DNA of 63,520 nucleotides, filler included, from Stramenopiles sp. TOSAG23-2 (taxonomy: Eukaryota): the NCBI GenBank assembly GCA_900128395.1. It is 7 parts of 7 records of this genome, joined end to end, with 100 filler letters (N's around TTAATTAATTAA, not from the genome) between each part and the next. Parts side by side here need not be neighbours in the genome. Positions count along the whole stretch, not along the records: positions 27,626 to 55,110 come from LT649416.1; 6 more parts are not named here. The stretch is one strand, 5' to 3'. A program made the translations under genes and the position numbers. This document shows positions 3,177 through 61,940 of the stretch, piece after piece (the stretch's first letter is position 1; each line of letters starts with the position of its first letter). The notes beneath the pieces were generated by a model. The model searched no databases. It worked only from the letters and a program-made list of their open reading frames with translations, and was not told the DNA's origin.

Positions 3177-3381
3177 TAAGTTCTTGAGTTGCTTTCAAAT
3201 CGATATATCTTACTTTTTCTTTAAATCATTTTTTTATATATTATTTGTAAAAAAGTTAAATTTGCACGTGAAAATATGCAGTCCATACGATTTTTGTATT
3301 GGCAACGATAAGACGACAAATGGTTTGTCTATCCTAAAGGAAAATAAAAAAAATTAGAAAAGAAAAAGAAAAAAGGAAAAG

Positions 3382-27525: not shown

Positions 27526-27625
27526 NNNNNNNNNNNNNNNNNNNNNNNNNNNNNNNNNNNNNNNNNNNNTTAATTAATTAANNNNNNNNNNNNNNNNNNN
27601 NNNNNNNNNNNNNNNNNNNNNNNNN
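27526..27625. other. Artificial contig linker
   Basis: 44 N + TTAATTAATTAA + 44 N. Confidence 0.98.
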
Positions 27626-37301: not shown

Positions 37302-39157
37302 ATGGCAAACCGAAGAAAAAAAGAGAACAATCAATACAAACAAAAAAATTTGTGGGTGCATAAGTGTCAATTTACGAAATTACACTATCAAACAACAAAT
37401 CAGTACCGGTCTTATATCAGTCTCGTTTATCATATTACTTTCCTTGTGCTTGGTCAGTATTATATCAATTGTTGATCTTGGAAACCAAACTTCAAAAGCG
37501 GCCATGGACAATTTAAGATTACAGATCGAAACAAATGCTAGAAATTTCTCTACGTTAAATGCAGATGAAATCAGTGCCACTTTGCAACGCAGGGCAGCTG
37601 CAGCAAATTTGATTGCATATGCTATGAGTGATTTTTACTTAGCCACGGAACTAACATTTGATAAGGATGCGATATCCTACTTTGATGAACAAGTGACAGC
37701 TGGTTCACCAGTCCCAGGGGTTACGTTTAATAAGAACGATAATAACTTTCCATTGTATAAAACAAAGGAAACATCGAGTTATTATATACCTAAAACAACT
37801 AATACTACAGCAGGCACACCAGCGCGAGCACGATTGAATGGTTGCTATTTACCAAAAGGAGATACGCTTCGACAATATGGAACTCCAATGGATGAGTCAG
37901 GTTGTAAAGAGTTAACAACGGTGTTAGCAAGTGACCCATTGTTGGTGAAACAAATTCAACGTAGCGTAAAAATCAATCGTTACTTTAAAGATTTTTCAAA
38001 AAAAATTCCTGATATCTATGCAATATACTTTGGCTTCCGTTCATCTGGCCTATTTAGACAGTTCCCTGGGAGTAATGACAACTCAGACGGAAACACTCCA
38101 CGTACGTATGATCCAAGAAAGCGACCATGGTATTTAGATGCAATGAATGGAAAGAAATACGCATCAAGTACAACAGGGGCATGGTTTGGCCAAACGATTA
38201 TTACAGCACCATATCAAGATTTTTGGAGTAAAGTATGGATGGTAACAGTTGCAAAAGCAGTTTACGATGACGTCAAAAATTTAGTAGGTGTATTAGGAAT
38301 TGATGTTAGCATCAAAACCATACAAGATGAAATTCTTAAAGTACATTTCTTAGAATCAGGTTATGTTATATTGACTGAATCTGCATCGAGATCAGCAAGC
38401 AATATGAAAGAAAGACTTGTCGTTTCTGCGCCAAATTTTGAAAGTTACGTTACAAATGGAAATGTATATTTTAAAGATGTACTGCCATCCGTTGCAAGCA
38501 ATTCCACGTTATTCAATAGTTTGTGGTCGGAAACAAATGTCAAATATTACTCAGAACGGGAAAATGATGAAGAAAAAAACTATTTACTTGCATATAGCAG
38601 TGCTGGCAGCACAATGTTTCGTGAACGGTATACTGTTTTTATAGTTATTCCGGAAGGGGAAGCATTAGGCGTTTTGCCAACATTAGAAAAAACAATTCTT
38701 GAAACAATAGAGGAAGTTGTTGGAATTGTCAGCGCAACTTCCATTACTACTGGTCTTGTCACTTTATTGATAATTATTACGGTAACAAATTCGATATCAA
38801 AGCCTGTACAAGCAATGGTTCAAATAGCTCAATCCATTGTCAAAGGTGCAGCTGAACAGAATTTAGTGAAAGACTTTGAAAGACAAGAACGAGCAATGAA
38901 AGCAGTACGTGATTATGCCGGAGTGAAAGAAGGCTTTACAAATGCTGATGCAGGAAGGAGAAAAAATTAATAATGAGATGCAATTATTGGCAAGGAGTTT
39001 TTTGACGATGACTAGTGGTTTGAAACGAGATGCCAATCGAGAGAAAGCACTTGTTAAGCATCCAATTAATCCATATCACATGGATCAAGAAAGTGAATTT
39101 ATGGGTGATTTTATAGATCAAAATTTAGCAGTGGAAGTTGAAGCAAAACAAATGTAA
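37302..39157 (+). CDS. Receptor B: TM-dCache(amino-acid motif)-TM-HAMP-like with short tail; two +1 frameshifts in A-runs (37316-37322, 38961-38966)
   Basis: Reconstructed MANRRK-RTINTNKKICGC...TM1; YDPRKRPWY...APYQD...VLGIDVS; TM2-SISKPVQAMVQIA...NEMQLLARSFLTM. Confidence 0.8.
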
Positions 39158-39503
39158 TTTAACATGTGGAGTTTTTTTTTAGAGGAGATTTAAAGCGAAT
39201 GATCAAACTACGAACTCCAGTTCGTATATTGGAATATATATTTTTTACGGAATATATGATATTAGAAATGTTTAATTTTTTTAATTACGTCCCGTAAAAA
39301 ACAAAAGTAAAAAATATTAACACAGATACGCGAGAGTATTTATTATAAAAATCTACGACGTATGTGTATGATATTTGTAATACAAAGTGTATCATACGTA
39401 CTCGTATATATCATATCATACGCTTCAGTATCATACAATACCGAATATATTTTAATAAATATTTTAAAAAATCAGTGCACATATTTCCCGCCTCCCCGTT
39501 TTT

Positions 39504-41106
39504 TTATTTTTTATCCTCTTTTCTATCTTCTTCTTCGGTATCAAAACAACGAAGATTTTCCCTCACTTTCCCCGCTGCTACCCATTCATTTATAAAATCG
39601 TTTTTAGCCTCCTTTGATATATGTGCATTGAATCGTATATCGACTGTGGTTACACTTGTACTATTTAATGCATATGCTTTTAAAGCATCGAAACCTTCCA
39701 TACCAATCATATTACCACTCAATTCAATTTCTTCCAATGCCATTACATCTTCATTGTCTAACTTAACCAATTCGTTCACCAATGCTATTATACCATCTGA
39801 ACTAATGTCATTTTCTCTCAAATCCAATCTCGTCAGATTTCTAAAGCAAGGAGACTTTTCATCATCTGCAAGTGCAGCTGCAAGACTTTTAACCCCACCA
39901 TTGCCAATGTTATTACCTGCAATTGATAAGTCATCGAGCCTGGCTGTGTACGACATGCCTTGCAATATGGCATCAAAACCTTCTTCATTCATATTAATAA
40001 ACATCAAATTCAATATTCTTAACTTGTTGCATCGCTGAATGATTTTAAATAAGACTTTGCATCCCACCGGTCCAAGAGGATTTTTGCTTAAATTTAATAT
40101 TTCAAGGTTCCTCCAGTCACAATTTGAATCTAAAATAGTCTCTAAACCATATGGATCAACGTGGTTGTCTGATAAATTCAACATATTTAAATTTAAAACG
40201 TTTTTCAATATGAATTTAATTGTATCGCAATCTCTATTAATAATATTTTTCCCCGACAAATCCATGACATCATAATGACCACCTTCTAATTCTTTCTCAT
40301 TCGGTTTGCCAATCAACTGCCTGATTTTCCTCTGTTGTTTCTTAAGAAATGGGCGTTCCCATAAATATACTGAATATAAATGACAAAATACCATAAGCCA
40401 TGATATAATCAACGTTGGATACCAGAATAAGCCTATGATATTGTTCAATCCTTGATCGACCTTTGCATTCCTAAAAAAATCTTCACACCCATCCTCTACT
40501 GCTTCTTCTGAACATGCATTGAACATACCCCTTTTCCAAAAAAGATTGCTTTCATCGGCCATATGTTTCGGCATATGGCCCATAAAGACTGCAAAAATAA
40601 CAATCCAAACTAAGTTGAAAGACAGGATAACGCCTTTATAAACTATATTTTCCCCACTTTGATTTAAATAAAACCCGCCAAATAAAAACACAAAGCCACT
40701 TTGGATTACAGAAATGATCATTGCAACATCGTGGAAAATCATGATGGGAACATAAATGAAACCCATGAAGGCTAACAATGGTAAATGGATACATGTTAGC
40801 GTAGCGATTAGAATTAAAGTTGTTTCGATTTTCATCGCTTTGCGTCTCTGTTGGAAAAATGCAGTTGAAGTTAATCTCGCAAGAGTACTACTTAATCTCG
40901 CACGAATACCATCATCAATTTCATTATCACCATTTGCTAACTCTGCTTCTAAGATTACCCTTTCGTAATTTGTTTCTATAACAAAAATTTCTAATACTGC
41001 TATTAGCACCCTTTGCCAACATTTCTGGCCATAGATAGAACTTTCTACTAACATATGCTCTAATTTCCAAAGCAACATACCTATAGAAAATTCTATTAAT
41101 GCTAAT
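39504..41106 (-). CDS. Giant gene part 3: further TMs plus RI-like leucine-rich repeats
   Basis: LNLSDNHVDPYG, LNLSKNPLGPVG, LSIAGNNIGNGG, LDLRENDISSDG; overlaps part 2 in the +1 frame. Confidence 0.75.
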
Positions 41107-44100
41107 TATCAATAAGTTTAGGCAATATAATAAAACAAAAAGAGGGGGATTTAAAATATTTTGGATGAAAATATAGAAAAACCAAAACACGACTGGAAAA
41201 ACAAGTCGAAAATACTTTGAATGTGGCTCCATGTCGTCGTCTAGTATCCTTCTATCATTTTCCATTTGTGCATTAGGGAAAAGTTCATTATCTCTTTTCT
41301 TAACACAACATTTACAACCAAAGATGTGAACAAAAACACGCATTGGTTGGTAAAAAGGAAAGGTCAAGATGTGCATAATGGCGAATGGAAATGCAAGCGG
41401 TATGACCAACAATCTATTATACCATTCAACCTTATTATCTCCAGTACATTTTATTACCTTCCATACCTCTGGTAAATACATGCCATTTACCCCCGACATT
41501 TCCAAGTAACCTAAAACACCAGAAAAAACTATAAAGACAAACATAAATGCCTCTATTGCAAGTATTACTAACCCGAAAGAAAACCCTGCAATACCAACAA
41601 TAATTTGTACAACTATCATAAAAGATTTCCCAAGACATGGCATTAATGTTTCAATAGCAAAGTGTCCCAATGCCAGCGGGAAATATTGGAAAAACAGAAA
41701 ATGTTTAGTTGGAAATCCAACTTCACCATATTCTTTGAGTCGCTTATCTTTATATTTTTTATTATATTTTTGACTTGTTGCTTCACGCAAAAGCACAGTT
41801 GATCCACACAGCACATATTGTATTGGCATTGTTGCCAACCAAACTACAGACACAATAAAATATGCAGGAATTAGTGAGCCAGCATGGACTATGCCGCCTT
41901 TAAAGCTGAGACCATCTTCGAAGCAAGGGCCATATGGAGTGATCGAAATCACAATCAATAAAGGAATACAGATGCACCCACAAATTATTGCAAAAATAAT
42001 TGCAATGCCATATGCCATTCCTTTTAAAAATATTTTAATTACAACATCATAAGAAAACCATTTAAGTTGCCTCCAAAAAATAGAGAAGAAAAGTACATGT
42101 AAGTTCAATATAGAAGATGTGGATACTTGCATAATGAGCACGGATGGATCTGGGCTCAGCGCAGTCTCCATATTCTTCTCTACACCCATATGTACATCAT
42201 ACGCCATTTTGACAATATGTGGCTCAATATCTTGATATTTCTCAATATAATTAGCGTATACATCCTTTTCGACTTCATCATCGCCATCTTTACCAATGGC
42301 ATGTGGTACTACCTTTTCCTTGCTGCGCCCTTTATATTTACCACAGCAAATTGCTCTCCATGCTGCAACAACTATACCTTTCTCATCATTACTTTTTGCA
42401 AAACAAAAACAATAAAGGAACATCAACGGGAAAATAGCTAAGTTTGTGAACGGGTATATATGGAGTAAAATGGCGTACATGAAAAGGGCAAGTATTGTTG
42501 GGATAAGATCCCGTTTTTTGTCTTTAACGTTTCCAACACTTTCTATGAAAGTCCCAATCAATAGAACATTGGAACAAATTACAATACTCATGGCCAATGA
42601 TAAGGAGCCAGCAATTAATCCAAAAACAAGCAATATTAATCCAACGCATAAATAATATAATAATGAACCAAACAATTGGCCGATATTTTTGCCACATTTA
42701 CAGGTCGTATTTAGAATATCATTTAATCGTTCTGCCAAATGTTTCCATACTATATTCCAAATTTTATTCTCGAACGTTATGTTTGGATCAAAAAAATCAT
42801 TAAATAATTGAAATTTACAAACCAAAAGATTCAAAACAACCCCCAACAAGAAAAACGTAAAGAAATAAAATACAAATTGTATCGTTATTAATGTTGCATT
42901 GAACGCTATTTTAAACAAATTGGAACGAATATTTAATTTATCAGACTTCTTTAATCTGTTTGATTGCAACACCACTTTTAGTGCCTCTACAGTTTTTGCC
43001 ATGTCTTTTTCATTTGCTAAATATACTTTTGACAACAGCGCCTCATCAAACATGTTTAGTTCTAACAAAGCAAGATAGGCTTTATTGGAAGATATGCTTT
43101 TGTCGTCTTCCTCTTTTTCTCCATCTTCAATTGTATCTGCTTTGTCAGTAGTATCTGATAGCTCTTCTTCTACGTCAATATTGTCAAGATTTAGCATGGT
43201 TTCTTTCTCGTGCTTAAATTTTGACTTTACTTCCTTGAATTCTTTATATGCGCGCTTCGAGTTTTTAATCCACGTTCGCCATTGAATACAACCGAGTCTA
43301 ATAATTAATGACATAATACACATTGATACATAAAAGATGATTCTTACTGGAAGATAATATAGACTAAAAATCAAAAATTTCCCTGTAACATCGCGAATAA
43401 GGAATATCATTACAATTTTTGTTCCTTTCAAAAATTTTGATATAACCCAAATCGTACCAACGATAGTATGCACTATAATTTTACCAAGCATGGTAAAACA
43501 GTTGCTAGGAATCGCATAAAATTTCTGATAAAGACGTATCTCCTCAAGTCTGTTATCCAAACATTTTGCAATCTGTTTGTTTGTACGATTGCAAATAATT
43601 TTTTCCAGCCTCTTCAGAACGGCGTTTTGAGCTGTTTGCCTTAACCTGCTACGTCCAATCGAATTTGCATTAATAAAATCTGGTGTCTTTTTTAATTCTA
43701 GATACATCAGTGCCCCATACAATTTAAATATTGGTTCTTTTTTCTTCGTATTAAATTTATCACCATTATTTTCCATAAAGTCTATCAAAGCATTTTTATC
43801 ATTGTTTCTAAGTTTTTTTCTTTTGTGGCACCAACCAAGATCAAACATTAATTTTTTGAATTGTATACAGGTAATACATATCATAATTGTCATAAACAAT
43901 TGGAACGGAAAAACGATCAGGAAAAGAACACTTTCAAGGAACCATGGGATAAGAACCGCAAAGAATATTTTACTATATCTACCCGTGTCCGGATCTTTCA
44001 TGTCCTTATAATACTCCAACAGATTTCCACTGACAAAAACGACTATTACCATTGGAAATTGTATAATCACACAAAGAAACGTTACAATCCCACTTATTAC

Positions 44101-47100
44101 ATACACAATAATCCAGCCCATGTTTAGCAATATATTTTCTGCAAACCATTTTGAAAAATATACTAAAAATTCCTTGATCCAAAAAGAGATATCACCAATA
44201 TCTTCACTTCTACCATCTAAAGTTAGCATAAAATACTTGAATACACTTTCAAAAACTCGTTTATCCAATGGTATGGTTGCATCTGACAATTCATTAATCA
44301 GTAACCTGACATGCGTCAAATTGAAAAATATGAAGAGGGCCATTACCAATTGAAACGGTAAATATAGATAAAACAACACCGTAAGAACAAAATAACGAAC
44401 TAAAACCTCATTGTTCCATGGCATGGTAATTTCTAGAAAACGCTCAAATAATGTATCTTTGTCCTCCTCCTCCTCGCCTTCTTCCACCTCTGGTTTAGCT
44501 CCTTCAATAAAAAGTTGCTTCCATGCTTTAGACCAAAACAGTCTACCACAACAAGTAGTAAATAACATAATTATGGTCAGTAACCATAATGGTGACAAAA
44601 CCAGAAAGGCAATAAAAGAAAAGACACCTGCCAAGAAATTTAACGTGATGATGTAGAAAAGATTTCCATAAAATTCAAACCATGTCAACAACGCAACCCG
44701 TATCATGTCATCGAATGCTTTTCCTTCATCCTTTCCGGAAGCAAGGAAAATCTTTTGCACGCGTTCACGTGGCAGGATTTCCATTGCCAACAGTCTTTCC
44801 ATAGCAGCACCATCTTTGGTTAGCTTCCGTAATATATTAGTTTGCGCAGCTAATTCATTTTCACTTGACTTGGCATTATCCCCTTTCCCTTCATTGTCGT
44901 TCTCCTCTATTTTCTTTTCCTCGTCAGTCTCCGTTCCATCTTCAATATCAATGGTTTCATGATCCGAATCTTTCGGTCCAAACACTGTGCGGCGTATTGT
45001 AGTACTAGTCACAAATAACAGTGATGGTTTATTATTGTTTTCAAAAAAATGATCTTCTACACCATCTATGAATTCCATTAAATTGAAAATCGTACACGCA
45101 ATGACAATTGCCATTGCGATTTCAATTACAAATGATACAACTACGCATGTTAATGCCAAAATGAAACATAATATTCCAATTAGAGATATTACCATCGCAA
45201 CAATTGTATCAAAAACGTACAGCTTGAAGCAAGCACCAGCATTTTTCAAGCCCTTAGGACCTTCTTTGGCAACAGCAGCTTTGTACTTAATCATGACATT
45301 ATAAATATCTTTCATAATGCTTGCAAATTCACTCCCTATTACCCCAAAGCGTATTATCCATTTTTGATAAAGTGTTGTTCCCGGATCACAAAATAAGTTT
45401 TTACAAAGTCTTGGTATCCTATAGAAACTTAAAAAAATCACCACTAACATTAAAAGTTGACATGGGAGGACGAAAGCGAAAAATATAATAGTTAGAAACA
45501 AATACTCTACAGCAGAGAACATGTACCTGTGACTATTACTTAAATTCTTTCTCTTCAATTTGTTAACTAATTCCATACGATAAGGCCCCAAACAAACGAT
45601 TAGGCCGCTTATAACATTAAAAATACACATACAAGATACAGGGATCCATGACAATATAACAAGTAAAAGCCTTGAAGTCGAATTAAGAAAATAAATTGGA
45701 ACAATTGAATATAAACGTACATCTGTAAATCGTTCAAACCATCGATAGATATGTTCCGTATACTGTTTACGTATTTCAAAAGTCGATTGTTTCCGAATGA
45801 TTTCCATGTCCATCGTCTCTTCTATCTTCTCTTCGTCGGTGTTCGTTGGTTCTTTTTCCTTTTTTTCTTTATTTAATGTCTTCTTGTCTCGTTTTGGTTT
45901 CACAAATATTATTTTTTTGTTTCTCTTTTCAGTCCCATTTACCAGTTTGTAAATCGCCTTTGTCAGATCTTCAATATCATCTTCGACTTCCTGCTTATTT
46001 TCTTGGTTACTTATTAATATGCCTAAGCTTAAAAAGCGACCAATAAGATCAAATACTTGTGCTAAGAGAAACAATATAACTTCTAAGAAAAAATACGAAC
46101 CAATATGAATAAAAACCACAACAAGCATAATACTACGTATTATTCTCCAAGTAAAAACATACATTGCAACAATGAAACACTGCGGTATGATAATATACAT
46201 TTTTTCCATCCTACTTGATTCTTTGCTAAATAATTTTTCTAGGCATCGTTTAAATTCCACGTGTAGAGGCGAGGTAGCGATTAAAACGATTAAAAAAACA
46301 AATTCAACTGGCATCCAAAGCCATTGCAAGAAATATGTTTCGAGAAAATACTTTACAATGATAGACAATCTTGTAAATGGTAATGCTAGACTATATGGTT
46401 CGTAACCAGGTTTTTTGCCCTCCTCTACCAACTCATCGTAGCAATATTTCCATGTAATATGTTCATTCGGACCGAAAAAATAATACACGACCTCGCCGGG
46501 AGAAGGAATTAAAATTAAGATAAACAATACCGCACCAACTACATGCAACACAATTTGTACGACGCACCATGCTACGATTGCAATGTCAAATATAACTGAA
46601 GCACAAAACATTTTGGGAATGAGAACAAACCAAGCGTAAAAGTTAAGCGTTAGCCATTCGTTACACTTCCCTATAAACAGAGGCATTGTTAACATATTTA
46701 CGTGCGTTTTTTTAATTTCACTTAACGTTTTAGTACGATTGTATCCATTCTTGATATATACTTCAATGATCTCATCGTCCGTGATAGATTTCGTATAAGG
46801 CTTGAAATTAAGAACAAGTATATCTTTGCCTTCCTCCACCTTCTTTACGTCCGCTATTTTTGCATCCGTTAATTTCGAATCAACGGATATTGCCTTTGTT
46901 TTTTCATCTTCGTCGTTTGCTGTAGCATTGAACACATCCTTACTTTTCAATTCAATCCCTACAACTTGAGTCTCCGCATTTGTATTAGTAGTATTTTTGT
47001 CGTTGTTATCTCTTCCGAACCAAAAAGACTGTTCCTTGCTAACTTCAGAATATTCTTCTTTCCCTAAGATACACGTATACACTAGCATAATCATTTCAAT

Positions 47101-48804
47101 TGGGATCCATACCAAAGAAAAACTTGCGAAGATTATTAACAATGGCAGGTAAAGCACAAATATTATGAAATCGATAAGACTAAATAAAAATCTAGAAATT
47201 ACAGCAAACAGGCGTTCATTGAACGTGAAACGATTATACTTCATATCTAAAATAAATATTATATTTCCAAAATGCCATGGATTCAAGAAAGGTGTTACAA
47301 AGGCTAGCGGCACTGATACTAAGATCACCAAATCTTGGGCTATATTTATAAATAACATTGCAGGGAATGTAAAAAATATAAATACCCAACCAACAATTGG
47401 CTCCATCCAATTTTTATTTCGGAGGGCGCCAAACGTTGAGTCCTCACGATACCAATTGTAATTAAAATAAATCGGATTAGTAACTGCCAATAATAATAAG
47501 CAAACGCCAATCACAATAAAATATGCAGCAATTGCTGGAAAGAAAATAAAAATGAGGAAGCGTCGAAGTGCAATTAAACCATGAGTCCAAACGAACTTAA
47601 ACAATTTGTCTTCTCGATCCATATCCTTTGCATTCTTGTAATTCTTGACAAACTCAAAATAGTTATCCGTATCATAAATCGAGGTTATCAAAATAAGCGA
47701 AATGAAAAAAATATACGATGGAATCAAGAAGATATGAGCAAGCGCCTCACAAAAGTACGCGGTAGTTCCGAAGACGTATTTCCAAAACCAATCTCCTATT
47801 TTTTCCTCTGGTTTTATAATCAAATGTGCTTTTTTATTCATTATCTCATTCCTCCAGGCATCATATTCCACAGGACTTAGCCAAATGACGATTACCATGC
47901 AACTTTGTAATAAAAATAAACACAATAAAATTGGGGAAAATATGACCAGACTAAGTAGTTTTATCTGATGCATTAACTTTCCCTTTCCATCCCGTACAAA
48001 ACAACACATTGATATGGCGTATATAATAACCAAAACGATAAATACGATGAAGTAAACCCACCAAGGTATACATGGAAAATACCAAATGTCCATCTCACTT
48101 TTAAAATTTCCGCTGGATGGTACCGGTTGTGGGCATATACCTGCTAGTATTTTATTGGAGTTGCTTACATTTCCAGCTTTCAGCGACTGTGCGTAACATG
48201 AATGGACAGGCTCTTGACATCTAAAGTTTGTCCTTGTCGTAAATCGCGTTTCATCCTGTTCTGTTATAGGATTCTTGTATTTATAATGAATCAATGTAGC
48301 GTAGGAATTATCATCACTACATTTTCGCCCGTACAGGCACTCATTAAATGGGAAAATTTCGTTTGTGCATGTATCAATCTTCTCCATTCTTGCACATGGT
48401 GGATCAGCGCAGTGATAGCTGTTGTGGGGGGGATCTTCTTCATCGTCTATTTTGCAAGAATCTTCACTAGATTCATGCTTTGCTTTATCTTGTATGATTA
48501 AAATTGCGTTGGAGCCTGGGATACGTTTAGCTATTAGACCGTCACGTTTCTCATTTTTTACGATCATTTGCTCTGCGATTTGACTGGTCTCTAAGAATTC
48601 CATAGTGGACAAATCTTTGCAAAAACTATTCCCCCAATTTAAAGATCTTGCAACACATTTTTCCAATTTACCAATAGTAGGGGAACCAGTATCTCCTAAT
48701 AAAGCTTTGAATTTTTCTATCTCAGGGTGGTATATTAACGCACCACTTAAATCGACGACATAATATTGTGAAGAATCTGGTTTATAATGTTGCCCCCCCC
48801 CCAC
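40927..48804 (-). CDS. Giant gene part 2: end of second dCache, Cys-rich stalk, very long repetitive polytopic membrane region with UBA/CUE-like modules
   Basis: YYVVDLSGALIYHP continues the Cache domain across a G10 frameshift; dozens of hydrophobic segments separated by acidic loops. Confidence 0.75.
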   Translation of the reverse strand: MGGGQHYKPDSSQYYVVDLSGALIYHPEIEKFKALLGDTGSPTIGKLEKCVARSLNWGNSFCKDLSTMEFLETSQIAEQMIVKNEKRDGLIAKRIPGSNAILIIQDKAKHESSEDSCKIDDEEDPPHNSYHCADPPCARMEKIDTCTNEIFPFNECLYGRKCSDDNSYATLIHYKYKNPITEQDETRFTTRTNFRCQEPVHSCYAQSLKAGNVSNSNKILAGICPQPVPSSGNFKSEMDIWYFPCIPWWVYFIVFIVLVIIYAISMCCFVRDGKGKLMHQIKLLSLVIFSPILLCLFLLQSCMVIVIWLSPVEYDAWRNEIMNKKAHLIIKPEEKIGDWFWKYVFGTTAYFCEALAHIFLIPSYIFFISLILITSIYDTDNYFEFVKNYKNAKDMDREDKLFKFVWTHGLIALRRFLIFIFFPAIAAYFIVIGVCLLLLAVTNPIYFNYNWYREDSTFGALRNKNWMEPIVGWVFIFFTFPAMLFINIAQDLVILVSVPLAFVTPFLNPWHFGNIIFILDMKYNRFTFNERLFAVISRFLFSLIDFIIFVLYLPLLIIFASFSLVWIPIEMIMLVYTCILGKEEYSEVSKEQSFWFGRDNNDKNTTNTNAETQVVGIELKSKDVFNATANDEDEKTKAISVDSKLTDAKIADVKKVEEGKDILVLNFKPYTKSITDDEIIEVYIKNGYNRTKTLSEIKKTHVNMLTMPLFIGKCNEWLTLNFYAWFVLIPKMFCASVIFDIAIVAWCVVQIVLHVVGAVLFILILIPSPGEVVYYFFGPNEHITWKYCYDELVEEGKKPGYEPYSLALPFTRLSIIVKYFLETYFLQWLWMPVEFVFLIVLIATSPLHVEFKRCLEKLFSKESSRMEKMYIIIPQCFIVAMYVFTWRIIRSIMLVVVFIHIGSYFFLEVILFLLAQVFDLIGRFLSLGILISNQENKQEVEDDIEDLTKAIYKLVNGTEKRNKKIIFVKPKRDKKTLNKEKKEKEPTNTDEEKIEETMDMEIIRKQSTFEIRKQYTEHIYRWFERFTDVRLYSIVPIYFLNSTSRLLLVILSWIPVSCMCIFNVISGLIVCLGPYRMELVNKLKRKNLSNSHRYMFSAVEYLFLTIIFFAFVLPCQLLMLVVIFLSFYRIPRLCKNLFCDPGTTLYQKWIIRFGVIGSEFASIMKDIYNVMIKYKAAVAKEGPKGLKNAGACFKLYVFDTIVAMVISLIGILCFILALTCVVVSFVIEIAMAIVIACTIFNLMEFIDGVEDHFFENNNKPSLLFVTSTTIRRTVFGPKDSDHETIDIEDGTETDEEKKIEENDNEGKGDNAKSSENELAAQTNILRKLTKDGAAMERLLAMEILPRERVQKIFLASGKDEGKAFDDMIRVALLTWFEFYGNLFYIITLNFLAGVFSFIAFLVLSPLWLLTIIMLFTTCCGRLFWSKAWKQLFIEGAKPEVEEGEEEEDKDTLFERFLEITMPWNNEVLVRYFVLTVLFYLYLPFQLVMALFIFFNLTHVRLLINELSDATIPLDKRVFESVFKYFMLTLDGRSEDIGDISFWIKEFLVYFSKWFAENILLNMGWIIVYVISGIVTFLCVIIQFPMVIVVFVSGNLLEYYKDMKDPDTGRYSKIFFAVLIPWFLESVLFLIVFPFQLFMTIMICITCIQFKKLMFDLGWCHKRKKLRNNDKNALIDFMENNGDKFNTKKKEPIFKLYGALMYLELKKTPDFINANSIGRSRLRQTAQNAVLKRLEKIICNRTNKQIAKCLDNRLEEIRLYQKFYAIPSNCFTMLGKIIVHTIVGTIWVISKFLKGTKIVMIFLIRDVTGKFLIFSLYYLPVRIIFYVSMCIMSLIIRLGCIQWRTWIKNSKRAYKEFKEVKSKFKHEKETMLNLDNIDVEEELSDTTDKADTIEDGEKEEDDKSISSNKAYLALLELNMFDEALLSKVYLANEKDMAKTVEALKVVLQSNRLKKSDKLNIRSNLFKIAFNATLITIQFVFYFFTFFLLGVVLNLLVCKFQLFNDFFDPNITFENKIWNIVWKHLAERLNDILNTTCKCGKNIGQLFGSLLYYLCVGLILLVFGLIAGSLSLAMSIVICSNVLLIGTFIESVGNVKDKKRDLIPTILALFMYAILLHIYPFTNLAIFPLMFLYCFCFAKSNDEKGIVVAAWRAICCGKYKGRSKEKVVPHAIGKDGDDEVEKDVYANYIEKYQDIEPHIVKMAYDVHMGVEKNMETALSPDPSVLIMQVSTSSILNLHVLFFSIFWRQLKWFSYDVVIKIFLKGMAYGIAIIFAIICGCICIPLLIVISITPYGPCFEDGLSFKGGIVHAGSLIPAYFIVSVVWLATMPIQYVLCGSTVLLREATSQKYNKKYKDKRLKEYGEVGFPTKHFLFFQYFPLALGHFAIETLMPCLGKSFMIVVQIIVGIAGFSFGLVILAIEAFMFVFIVFSGVLGYLEMSGVNGMYLPEVWKVIKCTGDNKVEWYNRLLVIPLAFPFAIMHILTFPFYQPMRVFVHIFGCKCCVKKRDNELFPNAQMENDRRILDDDMEPHSKYFRLVFPVVFWFFYIFIQNILNPPLFVLLYCLNLLIISINRIFYRYVALEIRAYVSRKFYLWPEMLAKGANSSIRNFCYRNKLRKGNLRSRVSKW

Positions 48805-51800
48805 ACTGCTTTATCAAATATAGATTTTAATGTTTCTACACTAAAATCTAAACCAGCGACTCCAGCAACAGTCTTATTTTCATCACTTAACACAGCAACC
48901 GATAAAGTCGAACACGGTTTTTTACTAAAGGTATCTATGTAAGTCGACAAACATGTCCACGTGGGATATTCTACGCTACGCATGTACCATGGCCGTTTTC
49001 TAGGATCGTAAAAGCGTGATTCGGGTGCGCCAGTCAATTTTCGGAAAACACCATTCGTTGTTCCAAAATATTTAGCAATGACCGATGTCCCTAAACCTGG
49101 ACGTTCTTTCCAACATTTTTCAACGGAGCGAGTTAAGAAAATATCTTCCAGTACACGAGGTCTTACCATTTTTTCAAAATCAAGACGTGCATCAAGCTCA
49201 TCGCTATTAATTAAGTCATTATACCGAGTTACGCGATCTACGCTTTCCTTTATTGAATGTCCTCGGTCCAAATCCCCTTGTTGAATATATAGGTACGGAT
49301 CACGATATGCACTGGATGCCAATTTCCAAACGCTTTCCTCAAACGTAACATTCGTCTGCGTATAATACCCTTCACAAGTAGGGAACCCAGAGTCAAAATA
49401 TGTATTAGGCGTTGGTACAACGTCTACACGATGGTACCAATCTTTGTAGTCCTTGCTTAATTTTGTCTGTGCATTGGTAACACTTCCAGGTTCAATGACA
49501 CGAATTTTTGCATCTTGATCTTCCAATACGAATGCCACGCTAAATTCAACCTTATCAACTTTCTTCCAATATATGTTTGCGCAAAATGTTAAATGCGTTG
49601 CTCCTTCCGCCGATGTCCCTCGTGGCATTAGCATTTGCATTTTTACGTATTTCGAACCGCTACCGCCAGCAGTCATGCTGTTACGAATTTCATTGATAAA
49701 AGTTTGATCCACGCCTTTTGAACTGTCCCAACTAGATGCAATCCCATCACATGATTGTAAAATCATCAAATCTTTGATATCCACAAATTTTGGATTTTTG
49801 CCATTTTTATCCTCAGGGGATGGCAGCGAGGGGTGATAAAGAACCCTGCCAGAAAAATCAATTAAGAACCCAAATGATTTTTTACCGTGATTTTTTGCAT
49901 CTGCTAAATCTTTGAAAATATCAGCAACTGCTAAATCAATGCCTGCAACACCAAAATAACGTTCTTGATCTTGCAAAATAAACGTTTCGTTTTTGGACAC
50001 ATCTTTATTCATATACATTGGTACTGCCCCGGTTATGACTACGCCTAAGCCTGAAAAATCGAAATATGGTAATGTCAAACGTACTCCTCCTTGTTGTGAT
50101 TCATACAAGTAATTCCCTGTCTCGTAGTAGGTGCCCATTTTGGACATCAAATCGCCAAAATTTTCATCCTTCACAAACACAGGTTTTATTACGGACATAT
50201 CTGAAATTTCAGATTGATATTCTTCCACGCCTGCACCTAATAAGAAGTTAAAGAGATCAGGTGGAGTTGCCATTTCACCGCTTAATTTTTCAATTAAAGC
50301 TTCTACTTGTTCGAAATTTTCTGTAACGCCTTCTTTCCCTGTTTTTGGCAATGTTGGAGCGCCATCTGTTAAAAATATAATAGCTGACTTACGAGAACTT
50401 AATGTTTTTCTTGAATTTAAATATTCAAATGCCGTAGTAAATGCAGCATGGTAATTTGTTTTGCCATTAGGTGCAATAGTCTCGATAAAATGGTTTAAAA
50501 ACTCTTTGTTGTGATGATTTGCTGGTGCTAAATTTCTAGTGCCTTCTTCTATCGATCCTCTGTAATCGATTGTTTTGCGAGCACCGGCCGTGCAAACATA
50601 ATCAAATGGATCACTTTCCAATTTGCTTTTCCATAATTTATTTTCTAGACTATTAGGATCTTCAAGGCAGCACAAATAGGCGTCTCCACGCCCGCGGCAA
50701 TGGCGGGCATCTTCCAGTTTGAAAGCTTTGTAATCCTTATTATTATTGCAAGTAGTAGCACCACAACAGTCAGAATTATCACACAAATCAACCCTGCAGT
50801 TGCGGGGTCCAGTCGTTGGAAAATGCACTACATCACTAAACGATATAACTGCAACACGATCATCATCATTCAACGTTTTTAAAACTTGTTTGGCAGCTTT
50901 TTTTGCATATTTCATACGATCGTACTCCAACATACTACCACTGCTGTCGATGATGATGACAATATCTTTTGGTTCACCAGCAGCTTTAACATACCATGGT
51001 CGTGTACGTGGATCATATGCAGGAATATCCGTTAAAAAATACAACCAAACCCACATAAGTAATAGCGGCAAGGCAAATCCAACCAACCAATATGCAGTGC
51101 ATTTTTTGCCCAGGCCTCTACCACCTGTTGTAGCTTCATCATCACCATCATCATTATTCTTATCTAAAACAACTTTATTTATCTGTGGAAAAATCACAAA
51201 AGTTGAGATGTAAAATAATGAAAAGATAGAAAGGGCCCAAAATACAATTACGGCAATTAACCCCCCGGACATTTCTTGTCCAAAATTATTTGAACCATTC
51301 GCATCAATAAATTCGCCATCTTCTGTTATATCACGCCGAAACCCTACTAACAATGCCAATGTAAAAGGAACGTAATCAAGCCAAAACAATAAAAGAGCAA
51401 TCCATGCCATAGCCCTTTTCTCATATAATTGACCAGTTTCAATAGTTTCAGATTGAAAATGGACCAAATCTTCCTCAGCAAGCGTCTCATCATCGTTCTC
51501 ATTTTCTTCTTCTCTTTCATGATCCCTATCACCACGCACTTTAAAAGTTTCTTTTTTCAGTTTAAATGTTTTTTGTTCATTGGTCATCGCTCGTAATTCT
51601 CGACTGGGCATTTTCATCAACCGTTTTCCATTTTCACTTTTTCCAATCAAAATTATGCCATAATAATCTTTGATGAAATAAATCCACCATATATGGAAAA
51701 TTATTGTTGGCAACACAAGTAGCGTTAAAGCAAATATCAATACACGAAATGTCGGTGTAAAATTGCGGCCAGTAGATATGCCTAGTATTCTATCCCTTCG

Positions 51801-52499
51801 AGCGGGGTATCGCCTGTGATAGCCGGAAGTCGATGAAACATATTGCCATTTAATTGTTTTCGCAGTTTCAAAATTTTCTTTAAATACTTCATCCAGTTTC
51901 GCTTCTTTACACGCTGCTTCAAATCGAAGTAAATTTAAATGTGAACTAAATATATCATCGGTTTTCTGGGGGTAAATCTCTGTATACCATGGTAAATTTG
52001 CACATGAATGTTTCGGATCGACTGAGGAGTAAAATGCATCGTTGTACCGCGCCTCGTGATCGTTAAAGTCTTGACATAGATCAATTGTCCAAATGGCATC
52101 TCTTCCTTCTTTGGCATACATTTCGTTCGCTTTTTTATCTATAAAGTCAAAATTTGTATTATACTGGTCCTCTAATTTATTTTTCAAATTTGTTAACGGA
52201 GTAATTAACTTCTGTTCAATGGTAGTTGCAACATGCGCTGCCATATCTTCAAGTATACGCGTACCATTTACATTATTCGAAATGTATTTTGCATCGTTTG
52301 AATAAGTATTTTGCAAGACGTTGGTACATAGTTGCTCACGTGATAATTTTTTTAAATCAGCAGATATTTTATCAGCAATCTCATTGATTTGTGTAAAACT
52401 AGAATAACTTGGAGCACAAGACACGATTGTTGTTTTTATTATTATTATAGTTAAAATAATAACTAAATGTTTTAGACTACAATGGTGAACTGGCGACAT
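48747..52499 (-). CDS. Giant gene part 1: alpha2delta/CACHD1-like ectodomain (signal peptide, dCache with inserted vWA, second dCache) plus 4-TM insert
   Basis: LDEVFKENF...IKWQYVSSTSGYHRRYPA; YDPRTRPWY-KDIVIIIDSSGSM...FLTDG; TLPYFD...GVAGIDL; GFLIDFSGRVLYHP; second YDPRKRPWY...YID...GVAGLDF. Confidence 0.85.
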   Translation of the reverse strand: MSPVHHCSLKHLVIILTIIIIKTTIVSCAPSYSSFTQINEIADKISADLKKLSREQLCTNVLQNTYSNDAKYISNNVNGTRILEDMAAHVATTIEQKLITPLTNLKNKLEDQYNTNFDFIDKKANEMYAKEGRDAIWTIDLCQDFNDHEARYNDAFYSSVDPKHSCANLPWYTEIYPQKTDDIFSSHLNLLRFEAACKEAKLDEVFKENFETAKTIKWQYVSSTSGYHRRYPARRDRILGISTGRNFTPTFRVLIFALTLLVLPTIIFHIWWIYFIKDYYGIILIGKSENGKRLMKMPSRELRAMTNEQKTFKLKKETFKVRGDRDHEREEENENDDETLAEEDLVHFQSETIETGQLYEKRAMAWIALLLFWLDYVPFTLALLVGFRRDITEDGEFIDANGSNNFGQEMSGGLIAVIVFWALSIFSLFYISTFVIFPQINKVVLDKNNDDGDDEATTGGRGLGKKCTAYWLVGFALPLLLMWVWLYFLTDIPAYDPRTRPWYVKAAGEPKDIVIIIDSSGSMLEYDRMKYAKKAAKQVLKTLNDDDRVAVISFSDVVHFPTTGPRNCRVDLCDNSDCCGATTCNNNKDYKAFKLEDARHCRGRGDAYLCCLEDPNSLENKLWKSKLESDPFDYVCTAGARKTIDYRGSIEEGTRNLAPANHHNKEFLNHFIETIAPNGKTNYHAAFTTAFEYLNSRKTLSSRKSAIIFLTDGAPTLPKTGKEGVTENFEQVEALIEKLSGEMATPPDLFNFLLGAGVEEYQSEISDMSVIKPVFVKDENFGDLMSKMGTYYETGNYLYESQQGGVRLTLPYFDFSGLGVVITGAVPMYMNKDVSKNETFILQDQERYFGVAGIDLAVADIFKDLADAKNHGKKSFGFLIDFSGRVLYHPSLPSPEDKNGKNPKFVDIKDLMILQSCDGIASSWDSSKGVDQTFINEIRNSMTAGGSGSKYVKMQMLMPRGTSAEGATHLTFCANIYWKKVDKVEFSVAFVLEDQDAKIRVIEPGSVTNAQTKLSKDYKDWYHRVDVVPTPNTYFDSGFPTCEGYYTQTNVTFEESVWKLASSAYRDPYLYIQQGDLDRGHSIKESVDRVTRYNDLINSDELDARLDFEKMVRPRVLEDIFLTRSVEKCWKERPGLGTSVIAKYFGTTNGVFRKLTGAPESRFYDPRKRPWYMRSVEYPTWTCLSTYIDTFSKKPCSTLSVAVLSDENKTVAGVAGLDFSVETLKSIFDKAVWGGGNIINQILHNIMSSI

Positions 52500-53319
52500 T
52501 ATTTGTTTATATTTGTTTGTTTCTTTCTAAAATCGTTAAAATCGTTTTTTATAGCTTTTCTATTTCTTACTTTAATTATATATATGTAAGCCGCTCTTTT
52601 GTGGGTGTGTGGGTGTTTACAGAATGTGCATATATGGTGTACATACGTAGTAGTAAGTGGGAAAGGGGAAATGGGTTTTTTCTTTCCAAGGGGGTACTAT
52701 ACTAACAAGTATAAACACGAAATTTAAAAATCAAATTTTTTTTTGTTTATAATCTTGTTTGTGATAATCCAATGATATTACTATATACGTTAAAATTTAA
52801 ATTTAAAAATACTTTCACTTATCCCCATTTAGTGCGTACGCGTCGTTTACCTATCAAAAAAATATTATAATCTGATATAATGCTATAATGCTATATTGCT
52901 GTATTAATATATTATAATATAACACACATCATCACCCACAACTGGCCAACCTAAAATAAAAACCCCCAAAAAAAACAACACCCTACTCTGGCAAGCGCAG
53001 AGTCTTCCCTAACAACACCCCAACAAGAAGATATTAGCACATTAATATTAATAATTATATGTATCGATATAGAATAGTATACATACAAAATATAAAACAT
53101 ATAACAAAAATAATATATATATATACATATATATATACATACATTCAATACAAAATAAAACTAACAATCTCTCTTTTTCTCTCTTCCAACAACAACAACA
53201 ACAACAAACTAAATAAAAAATAGAATCAAACAAGCAACATTAGATCGAGCATTATTAATATACAAACGTATAGCAAAATTAGATACATACATACATACAG
53301 ATACTTTTTCTATTGTGCA

Positions 53320-55110: not shown

Positions 55111-55210
55111 NNNNNNNNNNNNNNNNNNNNNNNNNNNNNNNNNNNNNNNNNNNNTTAATTAATTAANNNNNNNNNNNNNNNNNNNNNNNNNNNNNNNNNN
55201 NNNNNNNNNN
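55111..55210. other. Artificial contig linker
   Basis: 44 N + TTAATTAATTAA + 44 N. Confidence 0.98.
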
Positions 55211-56793: not shown

Positions 56794-56893
56794 NNNNNNN
56801 NNNNNNNNNNNNNNNNNNNNNNNNNNNNNNNNNNNNNTTAATTAATTAANNNNNNNNNNNNNNNNNNNNNNNNNNNNNNNNNNNNNNNNNNNN
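56794..56893. other. Artificial contig linker
   Basis: 44 N + TTAATTAATTAA + 44 N. Confidence 0.98.
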
Positions 56894-58476: not shown

Positions 58477-58576
58477 NNNNNNNNNNNNNNNNNNNNNNNN
58501 NNNNNNNNNNNNNNNNNNNNTTAATTAATTAANNNNNNNNNNNNNNNNNNNNNNNNNNNNNNNNNNNNNNNNNNNN
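58477..58576. other. Artificial contig linker
   Basis: 44 N + TTAATTAATTAA + 44 N. Confidence 0.98.
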
Positions 58577-60158: not shown

Positions 60159-60258
60159 NNNNNNNNNNNNNNNNNNNNNNNNNNNNNNNNNNNNNNNNNN
60201 NNTTAATTAATTAANNNNNNNNNNNNNNNNNNNNNNNNNNNNNNNNNNNNNNNNNNNN
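60159..60258. other. Artificial contig linker
   Basis: 44 N + TTAATTAATTAA + 44 N. Confidence 0.98.
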
Positions 60259-61840: not shown

Positions 61841-61940
61841 NNNNNNNNNNNNNNNNNNNNNNNNNNNNNNNNNNNNNNNNNNNNTTAATTAATTAANNNN
61901 NNNNNNNNNNNNNNNNNNNNNNNNNNNNNNNNNNNNNNNN
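61841..61940. other. Artificial contig linker
   Basis: 44 N + TTAATTAATTAA + 44 N. Confidence 0.98.

What the first reader, a model, noticed from the sequence alone, without database searches (positions are those of the whole stretch)
39504..52499. ~4,300-aa fusion: alpha2delta-like sensor + giant polytopic membrane body + LRR
Seen: three overlapping minus-strand ORFs join with one base change each (G10 tract at 48793-48802; an apparent extra base at or downstream of 41106), and the second Cache domain continues across the first break. The product reads signal peptide, alpha2delta-like Cache/vWA/Cache, Cys-rich stalk, about 2,600 aa of TM-rich sequence, then RI-like LRRs. Established: alpha2delta proteins are normally single-anchor auxiliary subunits of a separate channel. 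Inference: here the sensor is covalently attached to its own membrane machine, possibly a ligand-regulated channel or scaffold.
Basis: partly seen in the sequence, partly recalled or inferred. Interest (0 to 1): 0.8.

Follow-up and report, generated by a model that had tools for sequence, protein, structure and literature searches.

The report
Giant amino-acid-sensor membrane protein gene
Three broken reading frames are really one roughly 4,330-residue gene of a marine microbial eukaryote, joining a calcium-channel-alpha2delta-like amino-acid-sensing outer domain to a huge membrane body with no known relatives and an inner leucine-rich-repeat domain; its function is still unknown.

Summary
Three overlapping minus-strand ORFs (1250, 2625 and 524 aa) are one gene. 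The breaks are a G10 run (48793-48802) and a T5 run (40983-40987).

- **Intact elsewhere.** A 4,326-aa uninterrupted protein (P0006, 96-99% identical) reads through both breaks. An 11-kb contig (L001) has G8. All 4 of 4 laid runs (3 RNA libraries, 1 DNA) have T4.
- **Conserved architecture.** A 4,018-aa relative (P0027) is colinear end to end at 23-34% identity.
- **Layout.** Signal peptide; alpha2delta/CACHD1-like VWA_N, MIDAS-VWA and two dCache_1 modules, both with the full amino-acid-binding motif; Cys-rich stalk; about 2,570 aa with 29 hydrophobic regions; ribonuclease-inhibitor-type LRR.
A conserved 4-helix membrane insertion splits the first dCache module and ends 5 residues before its ligand-binding motif.
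- **Membrane body.** No relatives in Pfam, PDB sequences, the ESM Atlas or 1.84 billion representatives, apart from fragments of the same protein.
- **Limits.** Both AlphaFold runs failed (pLDDT 33-37).

Most likely this is an amino-acid-sensing receptor coupled to its own membrane machine. Whether that machine is a channel or a scaffold is untested. It is a new variant of a known kind. Interest 0.62.

The parts
39504..52499 (-). Whole gene: 12,996 nt including the stop. About 4,330 codons once the two homopolymer breaks are read through.
   Evidence: ORFs. Colinear with the uninterrupted P0006 (4,326 aa) at 98.9%, 97.5% and 95.7% identity for the three ORFs.
52413..52475 (-). N-terminal hydrophobic region of a probable signal peptide (aa 9-29).
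   Evidence: Hydropathy; coordinates. Cleavage is inferred, not predicted by a dedicated tool.
51801..52169 (-). VWA_N (Pfam PF08399), aa 111-233. This is the stalk and first part of the alpha2delta-type ectodomain.
   Evidence: 45.2 bits against a cutoff of 34.7. Aligns to alpha2delta-1 residues 8-221.
51033..51749 (-). Insertion of four hydrophobic helices (aa ~251-489) with an 86-aa charged loop, between VWA_N and the YxxxxRxWY motif.
   Evidence: Hydropathy. In the alpha2delta-1 alignment, chain residues 221 and 233 correspond to query residues 234 and 492. Conserved in P0027, including the motifs KDYYGI, ETGQxY, GLIAxIVxW, NDDGD and F-TDIP-x-YDPR.
50991..51017 (-). First amino-acid-binding motif, N-terminal part: YDPRTRPWY (aa 495-503). 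It starts 5 residues after the fourth inserted helix.
   Evidence: Sequence. Motif definition YxxxxRxWY from PMC8915833. Aligned to alpha2delta-1 'YDVRRRPWY'.
50220..50966 (-). VWA domain (approximate limits) with MIDAS DSSGS (50934-50948), LTDG (50352-50375) and a lineage-specific Cys-rich insert.
   Evidence: Pfam VWA_2 55.7 bits and VWA 38.8 bits. Alpha2delta-1 alignment. The Cys-rich insert is absent from P0027.
49926..50072 (-). First dCache_1, C-terminal part of the amino-acid motif (Tyr in LPYFDF ... Asp in GIDLAV).
   Evidence: Both residues align to the Tyr and Asp of alpha2delta-1 'VYLDA...GVDV'. Conserved in P0027.
48840..49010 (-). Second dCache_1 distal module with the complete motif: YDPRKRPWY, then Y, 30 residues, D.
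   Evidence: Pfam dCache_1 40.8 bits (below the cutoff of 45). PDB PctA dCache E 2.5e-9 and CACHD1 E 1.5e-15. Spacing counted from the sequence.
48793..48802 (-). Break 1: G10 run (C10 on the + strand). In-frame relatives have G8.
   Evidence: The L001 alignment shows two extra G in the window. An RNA-library contig (X16 record 15) and a DNA contig (X2 record 23) bridge it.
48118..48456 (-). Cys-rich juxtamembrane stalk.
   Evidence: Eight Cys are invariant between P0006 and P0027 (C1361 to C1474). Coordinates.
40359..48087 (-). Membrane body of about 2,570 aa. It has 29 hydrophobic regions (21 of them 34-64 aa long) separated by charged loops of up to about 140 aa, and weak internal repeats of a ~50-aa unit with a central P-x-Q/E.
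   Evidence: Hydropathy. Repeat profile and cross-validated control. Homologous and colinear with P0027 at 23-29% identity. No family match.
40983..40987 (-). Break 2: T5 run (A5 on the + strand). All other samples have T4.
   Evidence: P0006 reads through it. One letter is left out at 40983 in 4 of 4 laid runs.
39552..40274 (-). C-terminal ribonuclease-inhibitor-type leucine-rich repeats (about 8 repeats of ~28 aa).
   Evidence: Pfam LRR_6 48.4 bits against a cutoff of 23.4. Profile against the PDB: ribonuclease inhibitor E 4e-18, plus LRRC34, DRC5 and NLR LRRs.

Best explanation
This is one real, expressed, intron-free gene of an unidentified marine microbial eukaryote. The two frame breaks in the window are homopolymer-length differences peculiar to this assembly: miscalls, or less likely lesions private to that strain.

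The product is a receptor-like membrane protein of about 4,330 aa.
- Outside the cell, it has an alpha2delta/CACHD1-type module: two nested dCache_1 domains and a MIDAS-bearing VWA. Both dCache distal modules keep the complete amino-acid-binding motif.
- The first ligand-binding module is split by four membrane helices. The last helix ends 5 residues before the carboxylate-binding Tyr/Arg/Trp.
- A Cys-rich stalk then leads into an orphan membrane body of 29 hydrophobic regions.
- The chain ends in a presumably cytosolic RI-type LRR.

Proposed mechanism (inferred): binding of a free amino acid or similar small ligand closes the dCache pocket(s). The movement passes directly to the inserted helices and the post-stalk helix, and so to the membrane body. 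The body changes state and signals through the cytosolic loops and the LRR docking platform.

Shown: gene unity, domain identities, motif conservation, conservation of the whole architecture in a distant relative, and presence in RNA libraries.
Inferred: topology, ligand class, coupling, and output.

My odds by step: single gene about 0.95; amino-acid-type sensor ectodomain about 0.8; coupling mechanism as described about 0.35.
For: **One gene**
- P0006 (4,326 aa) and P0001 read through the breaks.
- L001 has G8 where the window has G10. The other two indels against L001 are in frame (6 and 15 nt). pN/pS is 0.40, from 19 synonymous and 29 non-synonymous differences.
- T4 rather than T5 in 4 of 4 laid runs.
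- Contigs from RNA libraries bridge both breaks, including one 4,884-nt contig covering 39499-44386. No splice joints appear in the RNA-library contigs.
- The stretch is held in 20 of 24 listed runs from 13 studies, 6 of them RNA libraries from 4 studies, all marine or seawater.

**Architecture conserved**
- P0027 (4,018 aa) is colinear: 34% identity over 1,912 aa, 24% over 1,015 aa (E 8e-59), 29% over 183 aa, and 23% over 798 aa (E 2e-36).

**Ectodomain identity**
- Pfam VWA_N and VWA.
- PDB alpha2delta-1 E 1.5e-19 (2e-25 by profile), CACHD1 E 1.5e-15, PctA dCache E 2.5e-9.
- Nearest ESM Atlas clusters are alpha2delta and CACHD1, score 0.93.
- The AA_motif (YxxxxRxWY plus Y...D, PMC8915833) is present twice, and MIDAS DxSxS is intact. 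Both features are conserved in P0027.

**4-TM insertion**: position and conservation shown.

**LRR of RI type**.
Against: - No ligand, topology or output was tested.
- dCache_1 scores 40.8 bits, below Pfam's gathering cutoff of 45.
- Spacing in the first Y...D half-motif is 42 residues, longer than the ~27-34 quoted in PMC8915833. By my count on the alignment, the aligned alpha2delta-1 stretch has 40.
- The membrane body has no detectable similarity to any channel, transporter or signalling family.
- Both AlphaFold2 models were unusable: pLDDT 36.5 and 33.1.
- Flank-charge analysis does not settle the topology.
- Contigs from RNA libraries can contain carried-over DNA (warning).
Confidence: 0.55

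Rival explanations
1. Ligand-gated channel or transporter of a new kind. The 4-helix insertion, alone or with the body, perhaps as an oligomer, forms a conduction path gated directly by amino-acid binding. This parallels ionotropic glutamate receptors, whose ligand-binding domain is split by the pore helices.
For: A ligand-binding module is interrupted by membrane helices, and the carboxylate-binding motif starts 5 residues after helix 4. The insertion is conserved in P0027. Many hydrophobic units carry a conserved mid-segment P-x-Q/E, i.e. polar residues inside the membrane. The iGluR comparison is recalled knowledge, not tested here.
Against: There is no similarity to any channel or transporter family in Pfam or PDB sequences. 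No charged residues are conserved in the four inserted helices between P0006 and P0027 (reading). No structure is available.
Confidence: 0.18
2. Adhesion, scaffold or membrane-shaping protein. The MIDAS-VWA binds an extracellular protein or matrix ligand. The many 34-64-aa hydrophobic segments are helical hairpins that shape or stiffen a membrane domain, such as a flagellar or feeding structure. The LRR ties it to the cytoskeleton or axoneme.
For: 21 of 29 hydrophobic regions are 34-64 aa long, many with a central Pro. This resembles monotopic or tight hairpins of reticulon or oleosin type (the analogy is recalled, and PMC12687448 was seen only as a search listing). The MIDAS motif is intact. 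Among the closest LRR matches are the axonemal proteins LRRC34, DRC5 and RSP15.
Against: Both amino-acid-binding motifs are fully conserved across 34%-identity relatives, which points to small-ligand sensing. LRR similarity is generic RI-type: ribonuclease inhibitor itself is the best profile match. The hairpin topology is not shown.
Confidence: 0.2
3. In the window's own strain the gene is a genuine recent pseudogene with two real frameshifts, although it is intact in the wider population.
For: The window differs from every other source at both homopolymers.
Against: Both lesions sit in homopolymer runs, the classic site of sequencing and assembly miscalls. Apart from them, the window copy has no stop codon in about 4,330 codons and is 96-99% identical to P0006. 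pN/pS against L001 is 0.40. The record is a fragmentary assembly of contigs joined by artificial linkers.
Confidence: 0.1
4. The ORFs are three separate genes, or are joined in vivo by introns or by programmed ribosomal frameshifting.
For: The ORFs overlap. A GTATGT...AG stretch of 40 nt near 41090-41051 would give the right frame shift for break 2 (my reading).
Against: Relatives encode the junctions in frame in DNA. P0006 translates straight through the putative 40-nt intron. RNA-library contigs are colinear with the DNA and show no joints. A single dCache domain spans break 1.
Confidence: 0.02

Closest known systems
Voltage-gated calcium channel alpha2delta subunits (CACNA2D1-4)
   Same: VWA_N, a VWA with a perfect MIDAS motif, and nested dCache_1 domains in the same order. 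The YxxxxRxWY and Y...D ligand motif lies in the first dCache. PDB alpha2delta-1 is the best match: E 1.5e-19, or 2e-25 by profile.
   Different: - alpha2delta proteins are about 1,100 aa, with a single lipid or TM anchor, and serve a separate channel (recalled).
- Here the module is interrupted by four membrane helices and followed by about 2,860 further residues.
- VGCC_alpha2 (PF08473) is not detected.
- Here the second dCache also keeps the amino-acid motif.
CACHD1 and the 'double-AA_motif' protist dCache_1AA proteins described in PMC8915833
   Same: Two dCache_1 domains plus a VWA. CACHD1 aligns over residues 655-1258 at E 1.5e-15. Having the motif in both dCache domains matches the ancestral-like 'double-AA_motif' group described in section 12 of the paper.
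   Different: CACHD1_C (PF27776) is not detected. CACHD1 is a single-pass protein of about 1,100-1,290 aa. The sections I read do not mention a polytopic fusion. The paper's datasets (supplements) could not be opened and may list similar proteins.
Bacterial dCache_1AA chemoreceptors such as PctA
   Same: The same ligand-binding motif and fold family: PctA E 2.5e-9 to the second dCache. The logic is also shared: an extracellular sensor passes a signal through adjacent membrane helices (PMC8915833 passages).
   Different: The bacterial receptors have two flanking TM helices and a defined cytosolic output (MCP, kinase, cyclase). Here there is no known output domain, only an orphan body and an LRR.
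Ionotropic glutamate receptors (functional analogy only)
   Same: An amino-acid-binding domain is split in sequence by inserted membrane helices, so that pocket closure can pull on them.
   Different: No sequence relationship was detected. The binding fold differs (dCache, not periplasmic-binding-protein type), and no pore loop is recognisable. The analogy is recalled, not tested.
Piezo and LRRC8 (architectural analogies only)
   Same: Piezo is a very large membrane protein built from many weakly repeated helical units. LRRC8 is a membrane domain followed by a cytosolic LRR.
   Different: No Pfam or PDB-sequence match to either. The unit here is a ~50-aa hydrophobic segment with a central P-x-Q/E, not a 4-TM Piezo repeat. 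Both comparisons are recalled.

Membership tests
alpha2delta / CACHD1-type VWA-dCache ectodomain | VWA_N (PF08399) above the gathering score | tested here: met
   45.2 bits against a cutoff of 34.7 in ORF1; 36.5 bits in P0006.
alpha2delta / CACHD1-type VWA-dCache ectodomain | VWA domain inserted after YxxxxRxWY, with MIDAS DxSxS...T..D | tested here: met
   VWA_2 55.7 bits. DSSGS and LTDG are present and are conserved as DTSGS and LTDG in P0027. The region aligns to alpha2delta-1 residues 233-296.
alpha2delta / CACHD1-type VWA-dCache ectodomain | dCache_1 (PF02743) above the gathering score | tested here: inconclusive
   40.8-41.6 bits against a cutoff of 45. Supported instead by PDB matches to PctA (E 2.5e-9) and CACHD1 (E 1.5e-15).
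alpha2delta subunits proper | VGCC_alpha2 (PF08473) region, size of about 1,100 aa, and a single C-terminal anchor | tested here: not met
   PF08473 is not found at E<=5. The protein is about 4,330 aa, with 4+29 hydrophobic regions.
alpha2delta subunits proper | Association with a separate CaV alpha1 subunit | not testable with these tools
   No genome of the organism is held.
dCache_1AA amino-acid sensors (PMC8915833) | AA_motif: YxxxxRxWY plus Y[x~27-34]D | tested here: met
   Second dCache: YDPRKRPWY plus Y, 30 residues, D. First dCache: YDPRTRPWY plus a Tyr and Asp aligned to those of alpha2delta-1, but 42 residues apart. Both are conserved in P0027. Actual ligand binding was not tested.
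Ribonuclease-inhibitor-type LRR (LRR_6) | LRR_6 above the gathering score, and similarity to RI | tested here: met
   48.4 bits against a cutoff of 23.4. Ribonuclease inhibitor E 4e-18 by profile.
Known channel or transporter families (voltage-gated-like, Piezo, iGluR, LRRC8 and others) | Any Pfam or PDB-sequence match in the membrane body | tested here: not met
   No Pfam family in P0006 residues 1470-4060 at E<=5. No PDB sequence match in that region at E<=0.01 (41 matches), nor among the best 60 of 102 profile matches at E<=1. The ESM Atlas gave no usable hit.

The most novel reading that the evidence does not exclude
This is a new class of ligand-gated membrane machine. An amino-acid-binding dCache pocket, split by its own four membrane helices in an iGluR-like design that arose independently, directly gates or drives a giant orphan membrane body. 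That would give marine protists a self-contained amino-acid-activated channel or transducer. It would also show what alpha2delta-type sensors did before they became accessory subunits of calcium channels.
Probability: 0.15. Interest if true: 0.88.

Novelty: new variant of a known kind. Interest (0 to 1): 0.62.

Why it matters
The function of alpha2delta and CACHD1 proteins and of eukaryotic dCache domains outside animals is largely unknown. [quoted passage not shown]

In this gene the same sensor, with both amino-acid pockets and the MIDAS site intact, is hard-wired into a membrane body. One pocket is also physically interrupted by membrane helices. That offers a natural single-chain system for asking how alpha2delta-type ligand binding is passed to a membrane partner.

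The membrane body is a large protein family without known relatives. It is found so far only in marine metagenomes and in marine RNA libraries from several studies, so it probably belongs to a widespread plankton organism.

A practical point: the apparent three-gene structure is an assembly-level artefact. Annotators of this record should merge the ORFs.

Tried and rejected
**Structure prediction**
- AlphaFold2 on 1,171 aa of the membrane body (alignment A3, 10 rows): pLDDT 36.5, pTM 0.24.
- AlphaFold2 on ectodomain aa 31-1230 (alignment A4, 5 rows): pLDDT 33.1, pTM 0.32.
- Both are unusable, so no fold search was run.

**Searches for relatives of the membrane body**
- ESM Atlas: no usable hit.
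- HMMER over 1.84 billion representatives with body residues 1040-2239 of ORF2: 11 hits, all fragments of 62-384 aa at 66-99% identity. It did not return P0027, although P0027 matches that region in a pairwise comparison.
- Repeat-unit profile (A2) against longer proteins, 113-2000 aa only: 8 hits. Seven carry no Pfam annotation and look like fragments of the same family. One (P0031, 354 aa) carries Lactamase_B/HAGH_C and was not followed up.
- Metagenome scan: 3 loci only.

**Internal repeats**
- Self-BLAST gave nothing.
- Segment phmmer gave only weak body repeats.
- In cross-validation, first-half units hit the second half at 17.3, 6.3, 6.2, 5.8, 4.0 and 3.8 bits (P0006) and 9.8, 8.1, 3.1 and 2.8 bits (P0027). 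The best of 14 reversed or shuffled controls scored 2.4 bits. The repeat is real but weak.

**Other features**
- EF-hand in a P0027 loop: below threshold (17.8 bits against 25) and not conserved in P0006.
- Flank-charge (positive-inside) analysis of the hydrophobic regions: inconclusive.

**Alternative readings of the breaks**
- A 40-nt GTATGT...AG intron at break 2, and programmed frameshifting: rejected.

**Giant-virus origin**
- The AAAATTGA motif has 9 matches against 16.7 expected. Gene content is that of a cellular eukaryote.

**Read cover**
- The upstream intergenic bin 52543-53000 has next to no cover in the three RNA libraries but has cover in the DNA run.

**Closed or unavailable**
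- No whole genome is held, so paralogues, a CaV alpha1 gene and the organism's identity could not be examined.
- Taxonomy is unresolved beyond 'marine microbial eukaryote'.
- The supplements of PMC8915833 (Dataset S3, Figs S16-S17) are closed and may list related architectures.

**Literature**
- Searches found no description of this architecture.
Full report
**Observation.** The window holds three overlapping minus-strand ORFs: 52499-48747 (1250 aa), 48804-40927 (2625 aa) and 41078-39504 (524 aa). The gene strand is 35% G+C, so a stop is expected in 7.7% of codons. The chance of frames this long staying open is 10^-43, 10^-91 and 10^-18. The first overlap contains a G10 run at 48793-48802. The second contains a T5 run at 40983-40987.

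**The three ORFs are one gene.**
- A search with ORF2 found a single cluster. Its members include P0001 (2,680 aa) and P0006 (4,326 aa, on a 22.8-kb contig).
- P0006 is colinear with ORF1 (98.9% identity), ORF2 (97.5%) and ORF3 (95.7%) and reads through both breaks.
- At break 1 the relatives read '...KAVWGGQQYKPDSSQYYVVDLSG...'. At break 2 they read '...ANSSIRNF|VIETNYERV...'.
- At the DNA level, locus L001 is 99.1% identical over 8 kb. It differs by three indels: 6 nt and 15 nt, both in frame, and 2 nt in the G run (window G10, L001 G8).
- The 48 substitutions split into 19 synonymous and 29 non-synonymous, giving pN/pS 0.40.
- Laying contigs of three RNA libraries and one DNA run shows one letter left out at 40983 in 4 of 4 runs. 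Contigs bridge both breaks: X16 record 15 and X2 record 23 across break 1, and X12 record 1, X16 record 11 and X20 record 25 across break 2.
- One RNA-library contig of 4,884 nt is colinear over 39499-44386. The RNA-library contigs show no splice joints.
- RNA libraries can carry DNA, so this shows continuity and presence, not proof of a single transcript.
- The stretch occurs in 20 of 24 listed runs from 13 studies, all marine or seawater. Six of those rows are RNA libraries, from 4 studies.

The breaks are therefore peculiar to this assembly. The assembly is itself a chain of contigs joined by artificial N44-TTAATTAATTAA-N44 linkers. The gene's true contig is 27626-55110.

**Architecture is conserved at a distance.** A search with the ectodomain among proteins of 2,379-7,571 aa found one further protein, P0027 (4,018 aa). 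It carries Pfam VWA_N, VWA_2, dCache_1 and LRR_6. P0027 comes from an organism of quite different amino-acid composition. It aligns end to end:

| P0006 region | Identity | Length | E-value |
|---|---|---|---|
| 37-1844 | 34% | 1,912 aa | 0 |
| 1906-2900 | 24% | 1,015 aa | 8e-59 |
| 3197-3360 | 29% | 183 aa | 4e-8 |
| 3541-4311 | 23% | 798 aa | 2e-36 |

The fusion is therefore not a one-off.

**Ectodomain.**
- Pfam finds VWA_N (45.2 bits; cutoff 34.7), VWA and VWA_2. It also finds dCache_1, slightly below cutoff (40.8 against 45).
- Against PDB sequences the best matches are alpha2delta-1 (E 1.5e-19; 2e-25 with a two-sequence profile), CACHD1 (E 1.5e-15 over residues 655-1258) and the PctA dCache (E 2.5e-9).
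- The nearest ESM Atlas clusters are animal alpha2delta and CACHD1 (score 0.93).
- PMC8915833 (passages and section 12 read) defines the amino-acid-binding motif as YxxxxRxWY plus Y[x~27-34]D. It describes ancestral-like 'double-AA_motif' eukaryotic proteins.
- In P0006 numbering, the first dCache has Y495-R500-W502-Y503, plus Y810 and D853. The last two align to the Tyr and Asp of alpha2delta-1 but lie 42 residues apart.
- The second dCache has Y1162-R1167-W1169-Y1170 plus Y1185, 30 residues, D1216.
- The MIDAS motif is DSSGS, followed later by LTDG.
- All of these are conserved in P0027.
- VGCC_alpha2 and CACHD1_C are not detected.

The alpha2delta-1 alignment places chain residues 8-221 on query residues 15-234, and chain residues 233-296 on query residues 492-556. 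The intervening 257 residues contain four hydrophobic helices (247-277, 363-387, 409-440, 467-492) and an 86-aa charged loop. The fourth helix ends 5 residues before Y495. The insertion is conserved in P0027, including loop motifs. An even number of helices keeps both flanks outside the cell. One amino-acid pocket is therefore split by, and sits directly on, a membrane helix bundle.

**Membrane body and C-terminus.**
- After a stalk with eight invariant Cys come about 2,570 residues with 29 hydrophobic regions in P0006 and 28 in P0027.
- In P0006, 21 of these regions are 34-64 aa long (18 in P0027). That is enough for two helices each, so the helix count lies somewhere between 29 and about 52.
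- They are grouped in clusters separated by charged loops of 85-141 aa.
- An iterated profile picks out 17 (P0006) and 21 (P0027) copies of a ~50-aa unit with a mid-segment P-x-Q/E.
- In a cross-validated test, units from the first half recognise the second half above all 14 reversed or shuffled controls, but only weakly.
- The body matches nothing in Pfam at E<=5, in PDB sequences or in the ESM Atlas.
- An exhaustive HMMER search of 1.84 billion representatives gave 11 hits, all fragments of the same protein at 66-99% identity. The repeat-unit profile gave 8 hits, mostly such fragments.
- The C-terminal ~260 aa are RI-type LRRs: LRR_6 at 48.4 bits and ribonuclease inhibitor at E 4e-18.
- Both AlphaFold2 attempts failed (pLDDT 36.5 and 33.1), so no fold comparison was possible.

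**Context.** The organism is a eukaryote. Genes on the true contig include a Ste24 CAAX protease and an FGGY kinase. CHD/SNF2 and homeodomain/Myb genes lie on an unlinked piece of the record.
- G+C is about 32%, ORFs are long and apparently free of introns, and there is no sign of a giant-virus promoter motif.
- No genome is held.
- On the same contig, two adjacent genes also encode dCache_1 sensors with the complete amino-acid motif but no VWA insertion. The locus is thus a small cluster of amino-acid-type sensors.
- The FGGY-kinase neighbour is syntenic in L001.

**Interpretation.**
- Shown: one gene; an alpha2delta/CACHD1-type ectodomain with two intact amino-acid motifs and MIDAS; a conserved 4-helix insertion; an orphan membrane body; an RI-type LRR; conservation of all of this in a relative at 23-34% identity; presence in marine RNA libraries.
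- Inferred: the ectodomain binds free amino acids or similar ligands, and pocket closure is passed through the inserted helices and the post-stalk helix to the body. The output is either a change in conductance or transport (iGluR-like logic, probability about 0.15-0.2) or signalling and scaffolding through the cytosolic loops and LRR.
- An adhesion or membrane-shaping role built on hairpin segments is a serious rival (about 0.2).

**Verdict.** This is a new variant of a known kind: an alpha2delta-type sensor in an architecture that I found no description of in three literature searches. The closed supplements of PMC8915833 may bear on that point. Interest 0.62.

Noticed in passing
window 27526-27625, 55111-55210, 56794-56893, 58477-58576, 60159-60258, 61841-61940: Six identical spacers, N44-TTAATTAATTAA-N44 (a six-frame stop linker). 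The window is a chain of separate contigs, and the pieces after 55210 are each about 1,583 bp. Genes before 27526 and after 55210 are not physically linked to the giant gene.
   Followed up: partly
window 32959-36432 (-) and 37444-38970 (+): Two neighbouring genes encode bacterial-style dCache_1 sensors with the full amino-acid motif (YDPRHRPWY and YDPRKRPWY, each followed by Y, 29 residues, D) but no VWA inserted in the dCache. The first has a VWA at its far C-terminus, after a TM helix. PMC8915833 section 12 says all eukaryotic dCache_1 proteins have a VWA insertion, so these look like exceptions.
   Followed up: partly
window 27687-28818 (+): Cys-rich EGF-like ORFs (172 and 211 aa) overlap at 28183-28205 in different frames. 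This may be another gene split by a frame error in this assembly.
   Followed up: no
window 19162-24885 and 24801-26270 (+): A CHD-type remodeller ORF (chromo, PHD, SNF2) overlaps by 85 nt an ORF with Myb and homeodomain matches. No homopolymer is visible in the overlap. Whether this is one gene or two is unclear.
   Followed up: partly
L001 8013-8252 of its coding part (contig end): The 11-kb contig ends in an inverted copy of its own preceding 240 bp (a fold-back chimera). That explains why P0001 stops at 2,680 aa.
   Followed up: yes
P0027 residues 3158-3193: One cytosolic-looking loop of the distant relative has a sub-threshold EF-hand (DKDGDGKVTMETL; 17.8 bits against a cutoff of 25). It is only partly conserved in P0006 (KDGDD).
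   Followed up: partly
window 49600-49850 approx. (ORF1 aa ~565-650): A Cys-rich insert inside the VWA domain is present in the window, P0001 and P0006 but absent from P0027. P0006 is 2 aa shorter than the window within it.
   Followed up: no
P0031 (354 aa): A protein annotated with Lactamase_B/HAGH_C scored 74 bits against the hydrophobic repeat-unit profile. This may be a chimeric gene call or a chance match.
   Followed up: no
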